Shown here: one piece after another, positions 3 to 63,336 of the stretch
Layout: the number at the start of each line of letters is the position of its first letter
Position numbering within the stretch: position 1 is the first letter of the stretch
NCBI GenBank assembly: GCA_044228445.1
Contig: JBGAUV010000001.1
Location: 250,495 to 314,494, forward strand
DNA length: 64,000 bases
Direction of reading: 5' to 3'
Origin: Minisyncoccia bacterium
GTDB taxonomy: Bacteria > Patescibacteriota > Minisyncoccia > Phycocordibacterales > PALSA-1337
Made by a program: the position numbers and the translations under genes
Notes under the pieces: model-generated
The model's database searches: none
Seen by the model: the letters and a program-made list of their open reading frames with translations, nothing else
What the model was told of the DNA's origin: nothing

Positions 3-1052
3 TTATTCTATTTCTTTCCTAGTTTTGGAGTTACGCCAAAAACAACATTGTTTATATATATTGTTTTATCAACAGTATTTACTCTATTTTGGAGAATTCA
101 TAGTTATTCAATATTAAATTTGAGAAAGAAACAGCCGAGTTTAATAATAGGTAGTGGAAAAGAAGTTTCAGAATTGATCACTGAAATAAATCATAATCCA
201 CATATTCCAATATATTGTAAGGATAATGTTGATCCTTCACAGTCTGTTTCAGATATAAATAAATTATTTGAAAATGAGAATAACTATAGATTTATTGTAG
301 CAGATATTGATGATCCAAGAGTAAATAACTTTTTGCCCGAATTGTATAAAAATTTATTTCCAAATGCTTCAATTATAAACTTGCATGATTTATATGAAGA
401 TATATTTGATAAAATTCCTTTATCAAGAATTGATTATGCTTGGATTATGAGTCATGTTAGTTCAATATCTCCAAAAATATATGATATTGGGAAAAGATTT
501 GTAGATTTAGTATTGGCAAGTTTTGTAGCATTATTTGGTTTATTAATTTATCCTTTTGTAGCTATTGCAATAAAAATCGAAGACGGCGGTCCAGTATTAA
601 TAAGTCAATTTAGAATCGGTAAAGATAATCATGTTTTTCCAATATATAAATACAGAAGTATGACTCGTAGTGATAATGGTAAATGGTTGCCTGAAAGTGA
701 AAATAAAGTGACAAGAGTTGGTAAATTTATAAGAAAAACCAGAATTGATGAATTACCACAAGCATTGGCAATAATAAAAGGTGATATGTCTCTTATTGGT
801 CCAAGAGCAGATATTATTGATCTTGGTAAAAGATTGGAAAAAGAAATTCCATATTACACTATTCGTACAGTTATAAAACCTGGTCTTTCTGGTTGGGCAC
901 AAGTAAATCAAGAAAAACCACCTCAATCAATAGAAGAAACAAAGATTCGTCTATCTTATGATCTTTACTATATAAAGCATCGTTCTTTGAGTCTTGATTT
1001 ATTAATTGCTCTAAGAACTCTCAAGACTTTATTGTCTAGAGAGGGTATGTAA
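3..1052 (+). CDS. Polyprenyl-phosphate glycosyl-1-phosphate transferase (bacterial sugar transferase family, WbaP/ExoY-like); 5' end probably outside window
   Basis: Frame is open from the window edge to the listed TTG at 48. C-terminal motifs DELPQ, GDMSLIGPR and PGLSGWAQV are typical of this family. Confidence 0.8.
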   Translation, partial: LFYFFPSFGVTPKTTLFIYIVLSTVFTLFWRIHSYSILNLRKKQPSLIIGSGKEVSELITEINHNPHIPIYCKDNVDPSQSVSDINKLFENENNYRFIVADIDDPRVNNFLPELYKNLFPNASIINLHDLYEDIFDKIPLSRIDYAWIMSHVSSISPKIYDIGKRFVDLVLASFVALFGLLIYPFVAIAIKIEDGGPVLISQFRIGKDNHVFPIYKYRSMTRSDNGKWLPESENKVTRVGKFIRKTRIDELPQALAIIKGDMSLIGPRADIIDLGKRLEKEIPYYTIRTVIKPGLSGWAQVNQEKPPQSIEETKIRLSYDLYYIKHRSLSLDLLIALRTLKTLLSREGM

Positions 1053-3722: not shown

Positions 3723-5250
3723 TTAGTTAAGAGTTTGATCCTAGCTCAGGATGAACGCTGGCGGCGTGGATAAGGCATGCAAGTCAAACGGCTTAGCACT
3801 GTGCTCGCAAATTAATATTTGTTAGTAGAGTGCTAAGCAGTGGCAGACGAGGTAGTAATAAGCAGGTATCAACCTTCGAGTCAAGAATACCTCATCGAAA
3901 GATGAGTTAATACTTGATAGTCTCGAAAGAGTAAAGATTTATCGCTCGAAGATGAGCCTGTTCAGTATCAGCTAGTTGGTAGGGTAATGGCCTACCAAGG
4001 CTTCGACGCTTAGGGGAGGTGAGAGCCTGACCCCCACCGATGGAACTGAGACACGGTCCATACACCTACGGGTGGCCGCAGTCGAGAATCTTCCGCAATG
4101 GACGAAAGTCTGACGGAGCGACGCCGCGTGGATGATGAAGCACTTCGGTGCGTAAAATCCTTTTGCCAGGGAGAAAGTTTATTGATAGTACTTGGCGAAT
4201 AAGAGGTTGCTAAACTCGTGCCAGCAGCAGCGGTAATACGAGTGCCTCAAGCGTTATCCGGAATCATTGGGCGTAAAGGTTGTGTAGGTGGTTATATTAG
4301 TCTTTTGTTAAATTCTTCGGCTTAACCGGGGGCATGCAGAGGAAACGGTATAACTAGAGGATGCGAGGGGTTTCTGGAACTCATAGTGTAGCGGTAAAAT
4401 GCGTTGATATTATGGGGAACACCAAAAGCGAAGGCATGAAACTAGAGCACTCCTGACACTGAAACAAGAAAGCGTGGGTCGCGAATGGGATTAGATACCC
4501 CAGTAGTCCACGCCCTAAACGATCTTCTCTTGCTTTTCGGAGTATCGACCCTCCGAGAGGCGAAGCTAACGCGTTAAGAGAAGCGCCTGGGTAGTACGAC
4601 CGCAAGGTTAAAACTCAAAGGAATAGACGGGGACTTGCACAAGCGGTGGATCATGTGGCTCAATTCGACGGTAAACGAAGAACCTTACCAGGGTTTGAAA
4701 CCTAGCTGAATACTTTAGGAAACTAGAGTAGTCGCAAGACAGTTAGGCAGGTGATGCATGGCCGTCGTCAGTTCGTGGCTTGAGTTGTTCCCTTCAGTGG
4801 GGTAACGAACGCAACCCTCGTTGTCTGTTATATTTGTCAGGCGAGACTGCCCACGACATAGCGCATAAACTAAGTTTGTGCTCTGCGTCGTGGGAGGAAG
4901 GTGAGGATGACGCCAGGTCAGCATGTCCCTTTGATACCCTGGGCTGCACACGTGATACAATCGTATCTACAACAGGACGCAATACCGATAAAAGGTGGAG
5001 CAAATCCTTAGAAAAGATACGTCAGTTTGGATTGAGGTCTGCAACTCGACCTCATGAAACCGGAATCGCTAGTAATCGCAGATCAGCTATGCTGCGGTGA
5101 ATACGTTCTCAAGTCTTGTACTCACCGCCCGTCAACTCAAGGGAGTTGGGAGTACCCGAAGTCCGCGCTTGTCGCGGCCTAAGGTAAGCTCAATGACAGG
5201 GAGTAAGTCGTAACAAGGCACGGGTAGCGGAAGCTGCTCGTGGATTATTT
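3723..5250 (+). rRNA. rrs: 16S ribosomal RNA
   Basis: AGAGTTTGATCCTAGCTCAG at 3730; GTGCCAGCAGCAGCGGTAATACG (515 region, one mismatch to the universal primer); AAGTCGTAACAAGG at 5206; helix 45 with GGAA loop at 5221-5240. Confidence 0.95.
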
Positions 5251-5407
5251 CAAATTGAATCTTGATAATCCCTCAGGGATTATCTTACCGAGTCGATTTT
5301 TGTACTTAATTGTACAAACAAGGGATATTGTTCTACTACCTTACAGTGAACACTCAGTCTGCGAGAGAAAAGACAAAGATCGGTGTCCTCTATAGAGACA
5401 CTGATCG

Positions 5408-5437
5408 GATGAATGGAACAAAATAAAGTACAGTAAT
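5408..5437 (+). other. 3' strand of the 16S processing stem
   Basis: ATGAATGGAACAAAATAAA is complementary to 3701-3720. Confidence 0.6.
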
Positions 5438-5444
5438 ATGAAAG

Positions 5445-5475
5445 AACCGCTTAAAAGGCGGTTTTTTCTTTTTAT
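5445..5475 (+). terminator. Rho-independent terminator closing the 16S transcription unit
   Basis: AACCGC-TTAAAAG-GCGGTT followed by TTTTTCTTTTT. Confidence 0.7.
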
Positions 5476-5563
5476 AAATAATTATTTCCACATTTACTAT
5501 ATTTGATATGTGTGATATGTTTTTAGTGGAAATCTAGACATAGAGTCTAGTTAGAAAGGAGAT

Positions 5564-5722
5564 ATGAACAGACTTCAACTTGCTCGTAGGGTTGAGTATA
5601 GTCAACCCTCTGTTAAAGAACAAAAGCAATCAATCAGTGTTGGTTCATTTTTGCTTGCTTTGTTTATATTTATATTGGCTTTTGGGCCAATGGTAGTAGA
5701 AGGATTTCTTACAACATTTTAA
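5564..5722 (+). CDS. Small (52 aa) protein with a C-terminal TM helix
   Basis: AAAGGAGAT immediately 5' of the ATG; MNRLQLARRVEYSQPSVKEQKQSISVGSFLLALFIFILAFGPMVVEGFLTTF; below the ORF-track size cutoff. Confidence 0.4.
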   Translation: MNRLQLARRVEYSQPSVKEQKQSISVGSFLLALFIFILAFGPMVVEGFLTTF

Positions 5723-5799
5723 GGAGAGAAAGGAGATATGTTTCAATTTTTATAACCACGCGATTCTTTATGCGCGTGGTTTGTCATCTAGTTTAATAT

Positions 5800-6486
5800 A
5801 TGAAAATAAAATTTTTCAAAATAATAGTTTTAATAATAGCAATATTGTTCTCAAAACATGCTTTTGCAAAAGAAGTTATATGTCCTGAGGGGTATATTTG
5901 CTTACCAAAAAATGATCCACTTATACTTGCTTCAACAAGTCCTTGTTTTATAGGTTCAAGCATGACAACCTCTTTTAAGGATTTAGATTCAAAAGCTAAA
6001 TCAATAGGTGATAGTATTTCATTTAAATTATTAAATAAGAATAAAGATTACGCTGGTACTTGGGGAGTATTTAAAAGTGGAAGTGGATCAAGTCCTGATT
6101 ACAATAAAGATTGGGGTTTTGAACTAAGTCTAAATCTTTCAAAATTAAAAACCATAAAGTCTATTACAATTATAAACGATGATGGTAATGAAGGTTGGTC
6201 AACTAGTGCGGATGAAAAGTTATTTGGTAAAAAGCCTTATCCTCTTGTTGTTATAGATAAAAATGGAGAGCAATTAAATTATGAATATGAAGATACTATT
6301 TTTATACCAAAAGGTGAAAGTATTTTAAATCTATACGGTCAGATTGAATATAGTGACTTAAGAAATACGGAAATTGTTGTTATTTTCACTGATAATACTT
6401 ATTTGAATAGTAAGATTATTGAAAATGCTTCAACTCAAGCAAATAATAGTCTTTGGGCTAAGTTAAAATCTAAGTTTGGATTTTAA
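5800..6486 (+). CDS. Secreted protein of unknown function
   Basis: Signal peptide MKIKFFKIIVLIIAILFSKHAFA|KE; no recognisable domain. Confidence 0.6.
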   Translation: MKIKFFKIIVLIIAILFSKHAFAKEVICPEGYICLPKNDPLILASTSPCFIGSSMTTSFKDLDSKAKSIGDSISFKLLNKNKDYAGTWGVFKSGSGSSPDYNKDWGFELSLNLSKLKTIKSITIINDDGNEGWSTSADEKLFGKKPYPLVVIDKNGEQLNYEYEDTIFIPKGESILNLYGQIEYSDLRNTEIVVIFTDNTYLNSKIIENASTQANNSLWAKLKSKFGF

Positions 6487-6523
6487 TTGATGTTTAGTCG
6501 TATTTTTGGTATATTCAACAATG

Positions 6524-6555
6524 TTTTAAATGCGCGTATAGCTGACTTGGTAGGG
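6524..6555 (+). repeat. Degenerate duplicate of the tRNA-Ile 5' half plus its upstream flank
   Basis: ATGCGCGTATAGCTgacTTGGTAGgG versus ATGCGCGTATAGCTcagTTGGTAGaG at 6590-6615; diverges after the D-arm. Confidence 0.6.
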
Positions 6556-6591
6556 TTGAGTGTCACTTATACGTTTTGAGATTTTTACCAT

Positions 6592-6664
6592 GCGCGTATA
6601 GCTCAGTTGGTAGAGCACACCACTGATACTGGTGGGGTCCCTGGTTCGAGTCCAGGTACGCGCA
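6592..6664 (+). tRNA. tRNA-Ile (anticodon GAU), CCA not encoded
   Basis: Manual cloverleaf: acceptor GCGCGTA/TACGCGC, D-arm GCTC/GAGC, anticodon stem CACCA/TGGTG with loop CTGATAC, T-arm CCTGG-TTCGAGT-CCAGG. Confidence 0.9.
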
Positions 6665-6758
6665 CAAAGTTTTTATATTTCAAAAAATGTGGTAATGTAT
6701 TTGTGGAAAGGAGAAAAAATGACCGCATATACATTCGAAGGAAAAAAATAAAAAATCA

Positions 6759-59210: not shown

Positions 59211-60224
59211 ATGTTAATAGGAAAAGCATCACCAGAAGATACAAGTCTACACCCAATAAAGTATAAATGGGCTTATGATCTATACAATCAAGCAGTTAGA
59301 AATACTTGGTTTCCACATGAAATTACTCTAAAAGAGGATATGGATGATTGGAAGAAGATGACTGATGATGAAAGACATGCAGTTACATTCCTAATGGCAT
59401 TCTTTAACCCTGCAGAACTTATTGTAAATCGTTCAATTGCTTTAGGAATTTACCCTTATCTAAAGTCTCCAGAGTGCCATCTTTATCTAGCAAAACAAAT
59501 GTGGGAAGAGGCAAATCACTGTGTGGCTTTTGAATATGTTCTAGAAACATTTCCTTTTGATAGAGAAAAAATATATAACCTTCATCTTGAAGTTCCTTCA
59601 ATGAAAGCAAAAGAGGATTATATAAATAAATACATGAAGAGAATGACCGATGTTTCTCTAGATGTAAGTACTACAGAAGGTAAAAAAGATTTTATACGAA
59701 ATCTTGTTGCTACAAACATTGTGATGGAAGGAATATGGTTCTATTCAGGTTTTATGGTTGCTCTTTCATTCCGTCAGAGAAAACAACTTAGAAACTTCGG
59801 TTCTATGATTAACTGGGTTTTGAGAGATGAAAGTCTTCACTTAAAATTCGGTATGAACCTTATTCACAATATCTTGGAGGAAAATCATGATCTATTAACT
59901 GAAGATTTTGCAAATGAAATAAGAAATATAATCATAGAAGGAGTTGATAAAGAAGTTGATTATAATATGGATCTTTTCCCAAACGGTATTCTTGGTCTAA
60001 ATGCTGATTATGTTAATCAATACGTAAAGTATGTTACAGATCGTCGCCTAGAAGAACTAGGTTTTCCTCCACACTACAATGCTACAAACCCAGCAAAATG
60101 GATGTCTACTGCTACAGATGTTTATGAGCTTGTTAATTTCTTTGAAGCACAAAATACAAGTTATGAAGTAGATGTAAGAGCACATTCAGAAAAGAAAGAG
60201 GAGAAGAAAGAGGCGGGGGAGTAA
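59211..60224 (+). CDS. nrdB: Ribonucleotide reductase beta subunit, class Ic-like (R2c)
   Basis: Metal site EEANHCVAFEY has Phe at His+4, where class Ia has the radical Tyr; first ligand is Glu (NPAELIV). Confidence 0.85.
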   Translation: MLIGKASPEDTSLHPIKYKWAYDLYNQAVRNTWFPHEITLKEDMDDWKKMTDDERHAVTFLMAFFNPAELIVNRSIALGIYPYLKSPECHLYLAKQMWEEANHCVAFEYVLETFPFDREKIYNLHLEVPSMKAKEDYINKYMKRMTDVSLDVSTTEGKKDFIRNLVATNIVMEGIWFYSGFMVALSFRQRKQLRNFGSMINWVLRDESLHLKFGMNLIHNILEENHDLLTEDFANEIRNIIIEGVDKEVDYNMDLFPNGILGLNADYVNQYVKYVTDRRLEELGFPPHYNATNPAKWMSTATDVYELVNFFEAQNTSYEVDVRAHSEKKEEKKEAGE

Positions 60225-60226
60225 TT

Positions 60227-60646
60227 ATGTTAGTTGTTAAGACTAAAATTAAAAATAGTGAAATTGAAGGACTAGGTCTATTTGCTGATCAGTTTATACC
60301 TAAAGGTAGTGTAATTTGGAAATATGATCCAAGTTTTGATATTTATTTTGATCCTAAGGAGGTAGAAAAAATGTCAGAACCGCAAAAAGACCTGATAATA
60401 CATTTTGCTTATCTTTCAAAAAAAAGTGGTAAATATGTTTATTCAATAGATAATACAAGATTCACAAATCATTCAAATAAACCAAATACCGTAGAAGATG
60501 AAAATGTTTGTAGTGATGATTTAGAAATATGTACTATTGCTGTTAAGGATATTCAAATAGGGGAGGAAATTACTATTGATTATCGGGTAATTGACGCAGT
60601 GGATGAAGGTAGTAATGAGGAGTATTTGAAGACGGTAGTTCTATAG
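60227..60646 (+). CDS. SET-domain protein (putative lysine methyltransferase)
   Basis: GLGLFA, RFTNHSNKPN, GEEITIDY; starts 3 nt after the nrdB stop, preceded by GGGGGAG. Confidence 0.8.
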   Translation: MLVVKTKIKNSEIEGLGLFADQFIPKGSVIWKYDPSFDIYFDPKEVEKMSEPQKDLIIHFAYLSKKSGKYVYSIDNTRFTNHSNKPNTVEDENVCSDDLEICTIAVKDIQIGEEITIDYRVIDAVDEGSNEEYLKTVVL

Positions 60647-60663
60647 AGTTTTTATGGTTTAGG
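60628..60663 (+). repeat. Junction motif copy 1
   Basis: GAAGACGGTAGTTCTATAGAGTTTTTATGGTTTAGG; supplies the last 6 codons and the stop of the SET gene. Confidence 0.7.
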
Positions 60664-60703
60664 AATAAAAGTGGGCTCACCGAAACGAATTTCAGTGAGC
60701 CCA
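60660..60703 (-). terminator. Minus-strand terminator hairpin
   Basis: On the minus strand: TGGGCTCAC-N14-GTGAGCCCA followed by CTTTTATT. Confidence 0.5.
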
Positions 60704-60748
60704 GGGACAACCTTTTTCTCATGTTTCGCTCGCCACTACTTAGATACC

Positions 60749-60921
60749 TAAGATTTAGGCAAAAATTTACCCCACTTACATTTCCGTAAGTGGGGCGTAC
60801 CTAGGAATTTAGGATGACTTGAATCGTCTTGCGACGAATGATCAGAGCCATAAAAACCTAGATATATAAGATACTGACTTCTACATCACAGCAAACTACT
60901 ATAACTTTGTCAAGTGACAAA
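60749..60921 (+). repeat. 173-bp repeat, copy 1
   Basis: 172/173 identical to 62711-62883 by manual alignment (C/T difference at 60888 versus 62850). Confidence 0.9.
60758..60878 (-). ncRNA. Candidate sRNA A, copy 1 (~120 nt)
   Basis: Minus-strand promoter TTGACA-N17-TGTGAT (60885-60913); internal TCGTC-GCAA-GACGA hairpin; terminator CCCCACTTAC-GGAAAT-GTAAGTGGGG then TAAATTTTTG. Confidence 0.5.
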
Positions 60922-60937
60922 TGTGTGTACCTAAAAC

Positions 60938-60964
60938 AGTGGTCTCATAGAGTTTAAGGTCTAG
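60938..60964 (+). repeat. Junction motif copy 2
   Basis: AGTGGTCTCATAGAGTTTAAGGTCTAG. Confidence 0.7.
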
Positions 60965-60969
60965 CTATA

Positions 60970-60998
60970 TTGACATACTAAACTAAATGTGCTATTTT
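60970..60998 (+). promoter_or_regulatory. Promoter of cassette A: TTGACA-N17-TATTTT with extended -10 TG
   Basis: Read directly. Confidence 0.5.
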
Positions 60999-61017
60999 TG
61001 TATGTAATAGCACATTT
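60985..61017. promoter_or_regulatory. 11-bp perfect inverted repeat spanning the -10/TSS (operator-like)
   Basis: AAATGTGCTAT-N11-ATAGCACATTT. Confidence 0.55.
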
Positions 61018-61050
61018 CAACGATTTCAACCCAAAACCATTAGGAGAACC

Positions 61051-61425
61051 ATGAGCAAGCCTTCTTTCACCGTATTTGTTGGCATAAAGGGCGAATTCTC
61101 AGAAGAAGATTACGCCAAACTTCCGTCCGAGCTTCGAAAAGCATACTCGCCGTGTCCTGAATGGGATCTGGGAGAGGAAATCATTATCGACGGATTGGAA
61201 TTTGATTCCTTTGACCTTGGTCGCGATGACACTGCTGATCCGGGAGAATATGTGGGCTTCGGCGTCCATATCTTCGGTCAGTGGTATGACAGCGGAGCTA
61301 CTTGCTTCGCTCTTGATGAGCTTCAAACAATCGAATCTGTTCGTCAGAAGATGACAACTCTCTTCGATCAATGGAAGCTCGATGCCAAAGTCGAAGTGTT
61401 CTGCTTTGCAGGATACAATTCATAA
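61051..61425 (+). CDS. Island cassette A: acidic 124-aa protein, unknown function
   Basis: TAGGAGA-N5-ATG; GC-rich codon usage unlike the flanks; own terminator. Confidence 0.65.
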   Translation: MSKPSFTVFVGIKGEFSEEDYAKLPSELRKAYSPCPEWDLGEEIIIDGLEFDSFDLGRDDTADPGEYVGFGVHIFGQWYDSGATCFALDELQTIESVRQKMTTLFDQWKLDAKVEVFCFAGYNS

Positions 61426-61441
61426 CCCATCAACTCACTCC

Positions 61442-61480
61442 AGAAAACCCCTGTCGCGAGATGGTGGGTTTTCTGTTTTA
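61442..61480 (+). terminator. Rho-independent terminator of cassette A
   Basis: AGAAAACCC...GGGTTTTCT-GTTTTAT. Confidence 0.7.
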
Positions 61481-61654
61481 TAAAATTCCAATATGTTGAT
61501 ACTAACAGACTTGAACGGCATCCTAAATAGATGTCATTTATTGTTACTTGCTATATAAAAATCTCGTTGATATGTTGTTAGGTAAGACGAGCTTGAAATC
61601 AAAATAAAAACTAGAGCATCTTCTATGGGGAATTCAATCAGTATTTAACTCTGT

Positions 61655-61688
61655 GAAGACGGTAGTATTATAGAGTTTAAGGTTTAGA
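61655..61688 (+). repeat. Junction motif copy 3
   Basis: GAAGACGGTAGTATTATAGAGTTTAAGGTTTAGA; the upstream AGTATTT is also shared with copy 1. Confidence 0.7.
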
Positions 61689-61692
61689 CTAC

Positions 61693-61720
61693 TTGACATA
61701 TGACCATGTCGTGATATAAT
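61693..61720 (+). promoter_or_regulatory. Promoter of cassette B: TTGACA-N16-TATAAT with extended -10 (TGa)
   Basis: Near-consensus sigma70 promoter read directly. Confidence 0.7.
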
Positions 61721-61779
61721 TTAAAAGGACTAGGATTTTTCCTAATGCTGTCCAGCAAAATCATACTTGGAGGATAGAA

Positions 61780-62139
61780 ATGTACTCTGACGATAAAACT
61801 CTAAAAGAGTTCATGACTGTACTTGTAAGTACAGCTGCGGCTCGGAGAAACTACTTGGATGTCCCTAGCGATTTCATTTTGAGACATCCCTGGACACTGA
61901 AATACCTTTCCAATTTCGCTGAGGCTGACGATTTCATGCAGATCGCGAAAACGGAAGGAGTCCAGATTGTTTGCGAGGATGAACCCAAAAACATTCAAGA
62001 GTTTCGCCGGGACCATGGTCTCAAACCACAGGTTCGCTACAAAGTGTTTGTTCCAGCCGAAACAAAAATCAGAACAAAAGAACAGATCTTCAAGTTCGAA
62101 AGACAAGGAGATGGTTCATATGTTCCACTCAATGGCTGA
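61780..62139 (+). CDS. Island cassette B: 119-aa protein, unknown function
   Basis: TGGAGGA-N5-ATG; own terminator. Confidence 0.65.
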   Translation: MYSDDKTLKEFMTVLVSTAAARRNYLDVPSDFILRHPWTLKYLSNFAEADDFMQIAKTEGVQIVCEDEPKNIQEFRRDHGLKPQVRYKVFVPAETKIRTKEQIFKFERQGDGSYVPLNG

Positions 62140-62142
62140 ACC

Positions 62143-62187
62143 AAAACCCCATCTACGCTTTCATGAGAAGATGGGGTTTTGTCTTTT
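62143..62187 (+). terminator. Rho-independent terminator of cassette B
   Basis: AAAACCCCATCT-N14-AGATGGGGTTTT-GTCTTTT. Confidence 0.75.
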
Positions 62188-62188
62188 A

Positions 62189-62222
62189 GAAGATGGTGGT
62201 TTAATGTAGTTTAAAATTTAGA
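62189..62222 (+). repeat. Junction motif copy 4
   Basis: GAAGATGGTGGTTTAATGTAGTTTAAAATTTAGA. Confidence 0.6.
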
Positions 62223-62388
62223 TAAAAGAAAGCCGGCCAAACCTTATGGGTCTGGCCGGGAAAGTGATGGGTATGCGCCCATCTGCGGATCATTTACGAT
62301 CATTTTGCCAGTAAAATAAGGTTATTTCTGGTTACGTATCCCTGGTATTGTGTCCAGACACGTAACTTATGAATACTAACCTTATTCT
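62222..62388 (-). ncRNA. Candidate sRNA B (~165 nt), same promoter as sRNA A, different body
   Basis: Promoter TTGACA-N17-TATGAT (62395-62423, minus strand). Long hairpin AATAAGGTTA...TAACCTTATT enclosing GTTACGT/ACGTAAC. GATGGG-CGCATA-CCCATC hairpin. Terminator CCGGCCAGACC-CATAAGG-GGTTTGGCCGG then CTTTCTTTT. Confidence 0.5.
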
Positions 62389-62429
62389 TTTACCATCATA
62401 GCAAATTACTATAACTTTGTCAAGTATTC

Positions 62430-62462
62430 AAAGATGTCGGTGTTATGGAGTTCAAGTTCTAA
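62430..62462 (+). repeat. Junction motif copy 5
   Basis: AAAGATGTCGGTGTTATGGAGTTCAAGTTCTAA. Confidence 0.55.
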
Positions 62463-62478
62463 CCTCTATTGATATAAT
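62451..62478 (+). promoter_or_regulatory. Promoter of cassette C: extended -10 TGaTATAAT, weak -35 TTCAAG
   Basis: Read directly. Confidence 0.5.
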
Positions 62479-62522
62479 TAATCTAGAGTGTTAATCTTCT
62501 TTTTAAGAAAGGAGAGTACATC

Positions 62523-62720
62523 ATGATCAAAATTACTGTCCGTAAAGAAGGAGAGAGAACCTTTGCGGCCTATGTGGACGATGAAAATATGCGGCGCATA
62601 GGTGAGTCTCGAGGAGAAGCTGTTGGCAAAGTCGTATCTGATCTCATTGAACAAAGGTCAGTACGGTTGGAAGATTGTCAAGTGCATCAAATCGAGATTA
62701 AACAAAAATATAAGATTTAG
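62523..62720 (+). CDS. Island cassette C: 65-aa protein, faint HicB/DUF1902-like N-terminal pattern
   Basis: AAAGGAGAG-N6-ATG; MIKITVRKEGERTFAAYVDD...GESRGEAVGKVVSDLIE. Confidence 0.55.
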   Translation: MIKITVRKEGERTFAAYVDDENMRRIGESRGEAVGKVVSDLIEQRSVRLEDCQVHQIEIKQKYKI

Positions 62721-62883
62721 GCAAAAATTTACCCCACTTACATTTCCGTAAGTGGGGCGTACCTAGGAATTTAGGATGACTTGAATCGTCTTGCGACGAA
62801 TGATCAGAGCCATAAAAACCTAGATATATAAGATACTGACTTCTACATCATAGCAAACTACTATAACTTTGTCAAGTGACAAA
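62711..62883 (+). repeat. 173-bp repeat, copy 2
   Basis: See copy 1; begins inside the last codons of cassette C. Confidence 0.9.
62720..62840 (-). ncRNA. Candidate sRNA A, copy 2
   Basis: Promoter TTGACA-N17-TATGAT (62847-62875, minus strand); body identical to copy 1. Confidence 0.5.
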
Positions 62884-62910
62884 GATAGTGGTCTCATCGG
62901 GTTTAAAATA
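62881..62910 (+). repeat. Junction motif copy 6 (degenerate)
   Basis: AAAGATAGTGGTCTCATCGGGTTTAAAATA. Confidence 0.5.
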
Positions 62911-62917
62911 ACCAGTA

Positions 62918-62946
62918 TTTACAATTTGTATAATTTAGTATATAAA
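62918..62946 (+). promoter_or_regulatory. Promoter of cassette D: TTTACA-N17-TATAAA
   Basis: Read directly. Confidence 0.5.
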
Positions 62947-62981
62947 AAATGTAGACTTAATTTAACACTGAAAGGTGCATC

Positions 62982-63200
62982 ATGAGTATTCTAAGAGAAT
63001 TCCGTAACGCCAGCCCAAGTGAAAAAGACCCTGCAAAACTTATTTTATTCACAGTATTTGCTGACCTTAATGCTCGGCACGGCTTCGGGGATTTCTGGAG
63101 CGGTATTAACAATGATATAAAAGAAGAAATTTTGAAAACAAATCTCGAAAAGATAAGAGAAATACTGAAGAAAAAGACTCAAACCAAAAACAAAGATTGA
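62982..63200 (+). CDS. Island cassette D: 72-aa protein, unknown function
   Basis: AAAGGTG-N4-ATG; own terminator. Confidence 0.6.
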   Translation: MSILREFRNASPSEKDPAKLILFTVFADLNARHGFGDFWSGINNDIKEEILKTNLEKIREILKKKTQTKNKD

Positions 63201-63224
63201 AAAAAAGTGACTGAATCAATCCAG

Positions 63225-63268
63225 GCCTCGTGTATATACATAAAAGTAAACACGAGGCTTTGAATTTT
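63225..63268 (+). terminator. Rho-independent terminator of cassette D
   Basis: GCCTCGTG-N18-CACGAGGC-TTTGAATTTT. Confidence 0.75.
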
Positions 63269-63322
63269 ATATATCACACTTATATTTTAATAAATAACCA
63301 TTTGCCATAATATATTAAGATA

Positions 63323-63331
63323 TGGTATAAT
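63323..63331 (+). promoter_or_regulatory. Extended -10 (TGgTATAAT) of the rnpB promoter
   Basis: 6-7 nt upstream of the predicted RNase P RNA 5' end. Confidence 0.5.
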
Positions 63332-63336
63332 TATTA

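What the first reader, a model, noticed from the sequence alone, without database searches (positions are those of the whole stretch)
60749..62883. 173-bp direct repeat (172/173 identical) encoding a candidate 120-nt sRNA and bracketing cassettes A-C
Copies at 60749-60921 and 62711-62883 differ at one base. That base lies in the -10 hexamer of the minus-strand promoter (TGTGAT versus TATGAT). On the minus strand, each copy reads TTGACA-N17-TATGAT. About 120 nt follow, containing a GNRA-capped hairpin (TCGTC-GCAA-GACGA) and a 10-bp GC-rich terminator hairpin plus a U-tract. Near-identity in an otherwise unique region implies recent duplication or gene conversion. The direct orientation would allow recombinational excision or amplification of the 1.8 kb between the copies. 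Copy 2 starts inside the last codons of cassette C, so the sRNA terminator abuts that gene convergently.
Basis: seen in the sequence. Interest (0 to 1): 0.7.

Follow-up and report, generated by a model that had tools for sequence, protein, structure and literature searches.

The report
Duplicated small-RNA cassette in att-site array
The 173-base repeat is real, and it is one small self-contained unit (promoter, about 118 nt of folded RNA, terminator) that sits twice in a chain of mini gene cassettes, each bounded by a 32-base copy of the end of the ychF gene, which is also the attachment-site core of a phage integrase family in Patescibacteria.

Summary
The copies lie at 60749-60921 and 62711-62883 and differ at one base (60889 C / 62851 T). 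That base is position 2 of the minus-strand -10 hexamer.

The region is not otherwise unique. It is an array of units 0.2-0.7 kb long, separated by a 32-nt direct repeat, AAGATGGTGGTnTCATAGAGTTTAAGATTTAG. This repeat equals the last 10 codons plus the stop of ychF ("KDGDVIEFKI*").

The same arrays occur in at least 10 unrelated Patescibacteria contigs, usually between ychF and leuS. The same core lies 320-400 nt downstream of a conserved Xer-like tyrosine integrase carried by phage-like elements.

In near-identical strains from other samples, each R copy is bounded by this core on both sides. In the window, both left cores are deleted, and both deletions end at exactly GAGTT|TAAGAT.

R and a neighbouring 170-nt unit (62222-62430) share a conserved strong promoter. 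Both look non-coding. R folds well (z = -6.7). It has no Rfam match, no homolog in any fetched locus and no target above chance, so its function is unknown.

It is not an IS, a MITE or an integron cassette. I call it a new variant of att-site accretion or cassette arrays. Interest is moderate to high, mainly for the array system rather than for R itself.

The parts
60749..60921 (-). R copy 1: the 173-nt repeat, holding promoter, RNA body and terminator on the minus strand
62711..62883 (-). R copy 2, 172/173 identical to copy 1
60885..60913 (-). Promoter of copy 1: TTGACA-N17-TGTGAT. The -10 is weakened by G at position 2 (+ strand C at 60889).
62847..62875 (-). Promoter of copy 2: TTGACA-N17-TATGAT with TG extension, 11 of 12 consensus positions
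60761..60878 (-). Predicted RNA of about 118 nt from copy 1. Ends are inferred from the -10 hexamer and the U-tract. It has an outer stem, a GCAA-capped hairpin (60824-60837) and a 12-bp GAAA-capped terminator hairpin (60769-60796).
   Evidence: transcript ends are inferred
62723..62840 (-). Predicted RNA of about 118 nt from copy 2 (GCAA hairpin 62786-62799, terminator hairpin 62731-62758)
   Evidence: transcript ends are inferred
60629..60660 (+). Boundary repeat (ychF-type att core) copy 0. It is the most degenerate copy and overlaps the last codons and the stop of the SET-domain ORF.
60933..60964 (+). Boundary repeat copy between R1 and cassette A (AAAACAGTGGTCTCATAGAGTTTAAGGTCTAG)
61656..61687 (+). 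Boundary repeat copy upstream of cassette B
62190..62221 (+). Boundary repeat copy between cassette B and the second non-coding unit
62431..62462 (+). Boundary repeat copy upstream of cassette C
62882..62913 (+). Boundary repeat copy between R2 and cassette D
62222..62430 (-). Second non-coding cassette (S2). It has the same promoter as R (62395-62423), a different structured body of about 165 nt, and a terminator at 62233-62259.
60227..60646 (+). SET-domain ORF. It is itself a cassette gene. A 40%-identical homolog lies between the ychF end and the next core in L130, and it ends inside the core in the same frame.
60672..60703 (-). Strong terminator-like hairpin in the short unit between SET and R1. 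It would act as a back-stop terminator for R1 read-through.
61051..61425 (+). Cassette A ORF (124 aa, no family, GC 0.47). Homologs lie between cores next to the integrase in L144 and, inverted, next to ychF in L145.
61423..61484 (+). Conserved 3' terminator module of plus-oriented cassettes, about 80% identical to modules in L118 (three copies), L126 and L113
61484..61654 (+). Conserved 170-nt non-coding element lying before a core. It is 68-70% identical to elements in the same position in L114 and L117.
61780..62139 (+). Cassette B ORF (119 aa, no family), with a 12/12 consensus promoter at 61693-61720
62523..62720 (+). Cassette C ORF. It is 65 aa here and 62 aa with its own stop, terminator and core in related strains.
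62982..63200 (+). Cassette D ORF (72 aa), the last unit before rnpB

Best explanation
R is a self-contained expression cassette of about 200 bp that lies twice in an array of mini-cassettes.

Shown:
- The stretch between nrdB and rnpB (60.2-63.3 kb) is a chain of units 0.2-0.7 kb long. Each unit has its own promoter and terminator, in either orientation. The units are separated by same-orientation copies of a 32-nt sequence.
- That 32-nt sequence is the last 10 codons plus the stop of ychF.
- Such arrays occur in many Patescibacteria, typically as ychF-array-leuS.
- The same core lies 320-400 nt downstream of a conserved Xer-like tyrosine integrase on phage-like elements. That arrangement is an int-attP or attR module.
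- Cassette A and the SET gene recur between cores in other genomes.
- In near-identical strains, R has a core on both sides.

Inferred:
- The cores are integrase recombination sites.
- Cassettes are deposited, picked up, duplicated or lost when the integrase, or homologous recombination, uses alternative cores.
- R was duplicated as a [core + R] unit in this way.
- R's product is a structured non-coding RNA of about 118 nt, made from a strong promoter shared with other non-coding cassettes. Its target is unknown.
- The -10 base that differs between the copies lowers expression of copy 1.
For: Repeat, promoter, hairpins and fold.

The core is confined to 60.6-62.9 kb of the window.

A metagenome scan with a 22-nt pattern returned 24 loci. 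About 20 of them carry the full 32-nt core, including bases the pattern did not specify. Many carry 2-5 copies spaced 200-700 nt apart.

The first copy is the true 3' end of a 365-385 aa YchF ORF in L109, L113, L115, L117, L119, L128 and L130 and in L145. Substitutions between copies follow codons.

leuS lies at the far end of the array in L109, L144 and L145.

Integrase link:
- Pfam Phage_integrase scores 1e-25 next to the core in L111 and L131.
- The integrase is 90-97% identical across L110, L111, L112, L126 and L131.
- Contigs chosen by the integrase alone also carry a core-like DGxVxEF[KR]I* sequence at the same offset. These are L136, L141, L142 and L143 and the IMG/VR phage contig L146.
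- The neighbouring genes are phage-like: tail fibre, SSB, ParB, RusA and endolysin-like.

R is flanked by the core in L001-L007.

Cassette A lies between cores in L144 and is inverted in L145. A SET homolog lies between cores in L130.

The promoter plus core is shared between R, S2 and an RNA cassette in L118, at 83-85% identity over 47-59 nt.

By inspection, R's only ORF (16 aa) has a weak AGGU Shine-Dalgarno buried in a stem, while ORFs A-C have AGGAG or GGAGG and D has AAGGTG.

Cassette GC is 0.37-0.47 against 0.29 for the window.
Against: - There is no integrase and no ychF in the 64-kb window. The array here lies after nrdB, so activity at this locus is not shown.
- The core has no dyad symmetry of the kind tyrosine recombinases usually bind. 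This is from inspection only.
- No circular or excised cassette form was observed.
- The R body has no homolog anywhere. There is therefore no covariation evidence and no evidence that it is expressed or functional.
- The two right-hand cores of the R copies differ from each other, while the R bodies are identical. The exact crossover that duplicated R is unresolved.
- The difference between cassette-borne cores (GGT or AGT at the third codon) and ychF ends (GAY) is partly biased by the search pattern.
Confidence: 0.6

Rival explanations
1. Ordinary segmental duplication or gene conversion of a chromosomal sRNA gene, unrelated to any site-specific system. The flanking 32-nt repeats would be irrelevant.
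For: The copies are 172/173 identical and in direct orientation. In the window itself the left cores are absent. No integrase lies in the window.
Against: In all five other samples, the duplicated segment starts exactly at the left edge of a core and stops 3-15 nt before the next core. The whole region is built of such units, and the same architecture recurs in unrelated genomes.
Confidence: 0.12
2. R has no function of its own. It would be debris left by two integrations of the same element (core plus the adjacent arm or end of the element), and its promoter-like and terminator-like features would be leftovers or chance matches.
For: R starts directly at the core. In L113 and L114 the sequence after the core also begins GCAAAAA followed by a hairpin. 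No homologs of R were found. The -10-weakening base is tolerated in part of the population.
Against: Both copies end at the same base just before the next core. Two independent decay events would not produce that. The promoter is a conserved module shared with other compact non-coding units in the window and in L118. The fold z-score is -6.7.
Confidence: 0.15
3. R encodes a 16-aa peptide (MALIIRRKTIQVILNS), for example a small membrane-active or toxic peptide, rather than acting as an RNA.
For: The ORF is present in both copies. It is hydrophobic and basic. Other minus-oriented cassettes in related arrays encode small proteins (L113 and L119).
Against: The Shine-Dalgarno is weak (AGGU), while the neighbouring cassette ORFs A-C have AGGAG or GGAGG. 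The start codon and the Shine-Dalgarno are paired in the predicted outer stem. S2, which has the same promoter, has no plausible ORF. No homologs exist to test coding conservation.
Confidence: 0.08
4. R is a MITE or a fragment of an insertion sequence.
For: It is a short, near-identical repeat in an AT-rich genome.
Against: No terminal inverted repeats join the ends of R. There is no target-site duplication (flanks ACC/TGT and ATA/GAT). There are only two copies in 64 kb. None occur in 145 fetched loci other than those of the same strain, and none in IMG/VR.
Confidence: 0.02
5. The repeat is an assembly artefact.
For: Short-read assemblies of related strains break at this repeat.
Against: Breaks exactly one k-mer inside the repeat are what a true two-copy repeat produces. 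L003 links SET-R-A. L004 links C-core-R. L132 and L133 link R-D.
Confidence: 0.02

Closest known systems
Tandem arrays of integrative elements at the 3' end of a conserved gene (tRNA, tmRNA or icd islands; SCCmec composites at orfX/rlmH)
   Same: Direct repeats reproduce the 3' end of the target gene. The repeat is the core of a tyrosine-integrase att site. Successive insertions build an array. Some units lack their own recombinase.
   Different: The units here are 0.2-0.7 kb with a single gene or a single RNA, not islands of 5-60 kb. The target is ychF. The window's array lies away from ychF and away from any integrase.
Integron cassette arrays and CALINs (clusters of attC sites lacking an integron-integrase)
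   Same: They are arrays of small, mostly unknown-function cassettes bounded by a repeated recombination site. A tyrosine recombinase acts in trans. Cassettes are shared between genomes. Arrays without an adjacent integrase exist. Duplicated cassettes occur within arrays.
   Different: The recombinase is not an IntI. The site is a 32-nt non-palindromic direct repeat rather than a folded attC. Most cassettes carry their own promoter and terminator and occur in both orientations.
Phage morons
   Same: They are autonomous promoter-gene-terminator units, differ in GC from their surroundings, and are associated with temperate phages near att.
   Different: Here they are chained, each is delimited by an att core, and they are found in the chromosome without the phage.
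PeSL promoter-stem-loop modules of T4-type phages
   Same: They are short repeated regulatory modules that flank novel ORFs in hyperplastic regions, and they are proposed to drive modular shuffling.
   Different: PeSLs act by homologous recombination in lytic phage genomes. The repeat here is derived from a gene's 3' end and is linked to an integrase.
Xer-dependent elements (IMEX, Acinetobacter pdif modules)
   Same: They are small modules bounded by sites for a Xer-type recombinase supplied in trans.
   Different: The core does not have the dif-like layout of 11-6-11 inverted arms. The recombinase here is encoded by a phage.

Membership tests
Bacterial trans-acting sRNA gene | Own promoter and intrinsic terminator delimiting a short transcript | tested here: met
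   Copy 2 is TTGACA-N17-TATGAT with a TG extension. A 12-bp hairpin is followed by a U-tract three bases later. These are consensus matches only.
Bacterial trans-acting sRNA gene | Structure conserved, with covariation, in homologs | tested here: inconclusive
   The fold z-score is -6.7. No homolog was found by blastn, by covariance model, in Rfam or by IMG/VR scan, so covariation cannot be assessed.
Bacterial trans-acting sRNA gene | Complementarity to a target mRNA | tested here: not met
   The longest exact complement in the window is 12 nt. Shuffled R gives 10-14 nt. Only this 64-kb window was searched.
Bacterial trans-acting sRNA gene | Detectable transcript | not testable with these tools
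   No expression data are available.
IS / MITE | Terminal inverted repeats and target-site duplication | tested here: not met
   The only inverted repeat in R is the terminator hairpin. The flanks are ACC/TGT and ATA/GAT.
IS / MITE | Multiple dispersed copies | tested here: not met
   There are two copies in the window, both inside the array.
Integron gene cassette | IntI-type integrase | tested here: not met
   The recombinase linked to the core scores 52 bits against TIGR02249, whose cut-off is 265. Its best matches are XerA, XerD and XerC, all below their cut-offs.
Integron gene cassette | attC site: imperfect palindrome with R''-L''/L'-R' boxes and a GTTRRRY core | tested here: not met
   The boundary repeat is a 32-nt direct repeat without dyad symmetry. 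Its GAGTTTAAG does not fit GTTRRRY (and inspection).
Integron gene cassette | Array of small mobile cassettes bounded by the recombination site | tested here: met
   Cassette A recurs between cores in L144 and L145.
att-site accretion array at the 3' end of a conserved gene | The repeats reproduce the 3' end of the target gene | tested here: met
   The core equals the last 10 codons plus the stop of ychF in 8 loci.
att-site accretion array at the 3' end of a conserved gene | An integrase-bearing element carries the same core next to int | tested here: met
   The core lies next to int in L110, L111, L112, L126, L131, L136, L141, L142, L143, L144 and L146.
att-site accretion array at the 3' end of a conserved gene | The array abuts the target gene | tested here: not met
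   It is met in other genomes. In the window the array follows nrdB and SET, and there is no ychF in the 64 kb.
att-site accretion array at the 3' end of a conserved gene | The integrase actually recombines these cores | not testable with these tools
   This needs biochemistry or detection of excision products.
Xer/dif-dependent modules (IMEX, pdif) | dif-like site: two inverted arms of about 11 bp around a 6-8 bp spacer | tested here: not met
   The arms AAGATGGTGGT and GTTTAAGATTT are not inverted repeats of each other (inspection of the consensus).

The most novel reading that the evidence does not exclude
Patescibacteria may have a phage-integrase-driven cassette shuttle that works like an integron but is built differently.

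- Single-gene or single-RNA units of 0.2-0.7 kb, each carrying a 32-nt att core that mimics the ychF 3' end, would be deposited in the chromosome and picked up from it when the integrase uses alternative cores.
- This would create exchangeable arrays at ychF and at secondary loci such as nrdB-rnpB.
- R would be a non-coding RNA cargo whose copy number and promoter strength vary within a natural population.
- The two window-specific deletions that both end at GAGTT|TAAGAT would mark the integrase cleavage point.
Probability: 0.35. Interest if true: 0.8.

Novelty: new variant of a known kind. Interest (0 to 1): 0.6.

Why it matters
Patescibacteria (also called CPR bacteria) have tiny genomes and no genetic tools, and little is known about how they acquire genes. 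A widespread array of exchangeable mini-cassettes tied to one conserved integrase and one 32-nt site would give three things.

- A concrete mechanism for accessory-gene flux in this phylum.
- A defined site and enzyme pair that could be tested and possibly used for genetic engineering.
- A catalogue of small proteins and non-coding RNAs, R among them, that are apparently worth carrying.

For R itself, the within-population polymorphism in its -10 hexamer and its two-copy state make it a natural dosage experiment, once expression can be measured.

Tried and rejected
- **Rfam.** The island gave only noise at E <= 10. Rfam gathering-threshold and tRNA scans of 15 array loci found nothing.
- **Closest genomes.** blastn and a motif regex against 80 nrdB loci from GTDB found no island, no motif and no SET or A-D homologs there. 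The nrdB-rnpB gap is 58 nt to 4.2 kb and holds unrelated content.
- **IMG/VR scans.** Scans for the promoter, the R hairpin, the R body and the core gave only chance coding matches (GGVIEFK) or nothing.
- **Covariance model of R.** A search over about 375 kb of fetched loci gave no hit better than E = 0.39.
- **Target search.** The RNAduplex version timed out. An exact-complement search was at chance level.
- **Cassette proteins.** Pfam, PHROGs, NCBIfam and PADLOC on ORFs A-D found no family.
- **Integron reading.** Rejected: the recombinase is not an IntI and the site is not an attC.
- **dif/IMEX reading.** Rejected: the core lacks dif-like arms, and the integrase sits in phage contigs.
- **Target-site-duplication model, as in CRISPR repeats or casposons.** Disfavoured. 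Cassette-borne cores share GGT or AGT where all 7 classified ychF ends have GAY. The search pattern biases this comparison.
- **Resident integron-like platform.** I considered this because int neighbours are syntenic but only 43-82% identical. It became less likely once endolysin-like, tail-fibre and replication genes were found around int.
- **GC skew.** No terminus signal is visible in the window.
- **Literature.** Searches found ychF used as attB by pneumococcal prophages (PMC6375853) and tandem genomic-island arrays (PMC9580842). Nothing was found on these Patescibacteria arrays.
Full report
**1. The observation**

The window is a Patescibacteria chromosome segment. It holds a 16S rRNA gene, secA, nrdA and nrdB, and RNase P RNA. 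NrdB is 90-91% identical to that of Paceibacteria or Parcubacteria MAGs.

The repeat finder confirms a 173-nt direct repeat at 60749-60921 and 62711-62883. The single mismatch is 60889 C versus 62851 T on the + strand.

On the minus strand each copy reads TTGACA-N17-T(G/A)TGAT preceded by TG. About 118 nt follow. They contain a UCGUC-GCAA-GACGA hairpin and a 12-bp GAAA-capped hairpin followed by AAAUUUUUG.

The minus strand folds at -47.9 kcal/mol, with z = -6.7 against shuffled sequence. The plus strand gives z = -3.9.

**2. The region is not unique: it is a cassette array**

A third copy of the same 30-nt promoter lies at 62395-62423. It drives a different structured body of about 165 nt, with its own terminator at 62233-62259. 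I call this unit S2.

A motif of about 32 nt, consensus AAGATGGTGGTnTCATAGAGTTTAAGATTTAG, occurs six times in one orientation between 60629 and 62913. It occurs nowhere else in the 64 kb. It cuts the region into the following units.

| Unit | Content |
|---|---|
| SET | SET-domain ORF; its last codons lie inside the motif |
| short unit | terminator-like hairpin only |
| R | first copy |
| A | ORF A, followed by a conserved 170-nt element |
| B | ORF B |
| S2 | second non-coding unit |
| C | ORF C |
| R | second copy |
| D | ORF D |

- Plus-oriented units have a promoter about 20 nt downstream of the motif, a strong Shine-Dalgarno, an ORF with no known family, and a terminator.
- Minus-oriented units (R, S2) have their -35 hexamer within 3-20 nt of the next motif.
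- Cassette GC is 0.37-0.47, against 0.29 for the window.

**3. Near-identical strains show that R is bounded by the motif**

Exact-protein look-ups returned contigs that are 99.5-99.9% identical to the window. They come from at least six other samples.

In all of them R is preceded by a full motif copy, AAAAGATGGTGGTCTCA(C/T)AGAGTT|TAAGATTTAGG. The duplicated segment there runs from the left edge of that motif to 3-15 nt before the next motif.

The window lacks 45-49 nt before R1. It also lacks 79-83 nt before R2, a stretch that holds C's stop codon, C's terminator and the motif. Both deletions end at the same nucleotide, GAGTT|TAAGAT. This is why copy 2 'starts inside' ORF C. The window's 65-aa form of C is not on record elsewhere. 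I cannot explain two deletions with identical right ends. They may mark a cleavage point.

The differing -10 base is polymorphic in the copy upstream of A: A in L004 and L007, G in L003 and L005.

One contig (L002) joins SET-core-R-core-D. Another contig from the same sample (L004) holds A-B-C-core-R, with ends exactly 55 nt (one k-mer) inside the repeat. L003 joins SET-R-A. At about 3x coverage, a real deletion variant and an assembler skipping a loop cannot be told apart.

**4. What the motif is**

A metagenome scan with a 22-nt degenerate pattern gave 24 loci. About 20 carry the whole 32-nt motif, including bases the pattern did not specify. Many carry 2-5 copies spaced 200-700 nt apart.

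Reading the motif in one frame gives (K/E)DG(D/G)V(I/M)EFK(I/V)*. In L109, L113, L115, L117, L119, L128, L130 and L145, the first copy is the true end of a 365-385 aa ORF that ends ...GKEY(I/V)VKDGDVIEFKI*. That ORF is YchF.

Downstream copies are not part of long ORFs. They still vary in a codon-like way, for example GGT/GGC/GGA, TTT/TTC and TAG/TAA/TGA.

The arrays usually end at leuS. No recombinase lies beside them.

The cassettes in these arrays have their own promoters and terminators and lie in either orientation. Some encode small proteins. Some look non-coding, for example units in L118 and L115. A terminator module of about 55 nt and the 170-nt element at 61484-61654 recur at 68-81% identity in other arrays.

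**5. Link to an integrase**

In L110, L111, L112, L120, L126 and L131 the motif lies about 400 nt downstream of a gene. In L111 and L131 that gene is a Pfam Phage_integrase protein of 305-324 aa. It is 90-97% identical across L110, L111, L112, L126 and L131, and L120 holds its last 25 residues. The gene is followed by a small basic or HTH-like protein and a conserved region with hairpins.

The protein is Xer-like. It scores below the cut-offs for XerA, XerC and XerD and far below the cut-off for integron integrases. Its nearest solved structure is XerA.

The family has 314 clusters at E <= 1e-30. Those that carry names are all Patescibacteria.

Contigs chosen by the integrase alone carry a core-like DGxVxEF(K/R)I* sequence at the same offset. 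These are L136, L141, L142 and L143, L144 and the IMG/VR viral contig L146. The genes around them are phage-like:
- SSB, ParB, a methylase and AAA_24 in L142;
- DnaA_C and RusA in L136;
- a RepO-like protein in L111;
- PG_binding_1 proteins in L141 and L143;
- a tail-fibre protein in L146.

More distant integrases (55-59% identity) showed no recognisable core.

I read this as the int-attP (or attR) module of a family of temperate elements that target the 3' end of ychF. The conserved region between int and the core would then be the arm region. The 10-mer TTATCCACAG recurs in it; this is by eye only.

**6. Cassettes are discrete, shared modules**

Cassette A has ten homolog clusters at 63-83% identity.
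- In L144 the order is int, core, promoter, A homolog (79%), terminator module, core, and further on leuS.
- In L145 the order is the ychF end, a minus-oriented cassette, a core, and then the A homolog (69%) inverted, followed by a degenerate core.
- A SET homolog (40% identity) lies directly after ychF in L130. It ends inside the next core in the same frame as in the window.

In the closest GTDB species, nrdB and rnpB are 58 nt to 4.2 kb apart with unrelated content. The window's array is therefore a lineage-specific insertion at a variable spot. It is away from ychF and from any integrase, neither of which is in the window.

**7. What R does**

R and S2 share a promoter that, together with the adjacent core, is 83-85% identical to that of a non-coding cassette in L118.

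R's only ORF encodes 16 aa. It has a weak AGGU Shine-Dalgarno that is paired in the predicted outer stem. ORFs A-C have AGGAG or GGAGG, and D has AAGGTG. A structured RNA is the better reading.

The R body has no Rfam match. It has no blastn or covariance-model hit in about 375 kb of related loci. It has no IMG/VR match. It has no complementarity above chance in the window. Function is therefore unknown.

I commit to 'non-coding RNA cargo of a mobile cassette', with about even odds that the RNA is functional. The mechanism of its duplication, recombination at the cores, is inferred and not shown.

**8. Comparison and verdict**

The array works like an integron array or a CALIN, and like a tandem att-site accretion array such as those at icd, tmRNA or SCCmec/orfX.
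- It fails integron membership on both the integrase and attC.
- It fails dif/IMEX membership on site architecture.
- It meets most criteria of an att-accretion array, except that this particular array is not at the target gene and its units are miniature.
- R is not an IS or a MITE.

Literature searches found ychF used as attB by pneumococcal prophages and found tandem island arrays. They found no description of these Patescibacteria mini-cassette arrays. The library searched is partial.

I rate this a new variant of a known kind, with interest 0.6. The repeat itself is modest. The system it belongs to is the notable result.

Noticed in passing
window 60745-60752 and 62707-62714, compared with L002 1529-1577 and L004 1845-1927: Relative to five or more near-identical strains, the window lacks 45-49 nt before R1 and 79-83 nt before R2. 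Both deletions end at exactly the same base inside the boundary repeat (GAGTT|TAAGAT), and their left ends are unrelated. The second deletion fuses ORF C to R (C is 65 aa here instead of 62). This may mark a recombinase cleavage point. It is unexplained.
   Followed up: partly
L110:4472-4656, L111:2135-2319(-), L112:271-455(-), L120:833-1017(-), L126:687-871(-), L131:8242-8426: A conserved region of about 150 nt lies between the integrase operon and the core. It has its own promoter-like CGCTTGGTATAAT and three hairpins, with a few compensatory or G-U changes. It could be an attP arm with protein-binding sites or a small RNA. The 10-mer TTATCCACAG recurs in the corresponding regions of L136, L141, L142, L143 and L146.
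   Followed up: partly
L113 about 740-900 (minus strand): One cassette holds a promoter like R's, followed by a sequence with a perfect tRNA-like T-arm and acceptor 3' half (GATGGGTTCAAATCCCGTCGTCGGCA) and then a terminator. ARAGORN and Rfam do not call a tRNA there.
   Followed up: partly
window 60224-63333; L008, L009, L011: The nrdB-rnpB interval is a variable spot in this clade. It is 58 nt in L008. It holds one 329-aa protein in L009, one 1363-aa surface-type protein in L011, and the 3.1-kb cassette array in the window.
   Followed up: yes
window 3723-6665: The 16S rRNA gene (3723-5255) is followed by a 228-aa ORF (5800-6486) and tRNA-Ile (6592-6665). No 23S or 5S gene was found anywhere in the 64 kb, so the rRNA genes appear to be unlinked or interrupted.
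   Followed up: no
window 60227-60646: The SET-domain protein lies 2 nt after nrdB with no promoter of its own. In L130 its homolog lies 16 nt after ychF. It therefore behaves like a promoterless cassette read from the upstream gene. It has a weak NCBIfam match to the SET domain of the Legionella effector AnkI/LegAS4.
   Followed up: partly
L085 8524-8903: A group I intron (RF00028, 59.9 bits) lies about 1.5 kb downstream of nrdB in a related MAG.
   Followed up: no
L141 757-1590 and L146 1973-2803: The phage-like contigs carry a second, shorter tyrosine recombinase (276-277 aa, MrpR_C_cat or phrog_1) about 3-4 kb upstream of the att-proximal integrase.
   Followed up: no
L130 and L126 (ERZ724505 NODE_79149 and NODE_35634): These two contigs come from the same sample as the window's near-identical strain and have similar coverage (2.5-2.7x against 2.9-3.6x). 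One carries a ychF-proximal array and the other an integrase-proximal array. They may belong to the same genome, which would then hold three arrays.
   Followed up: no
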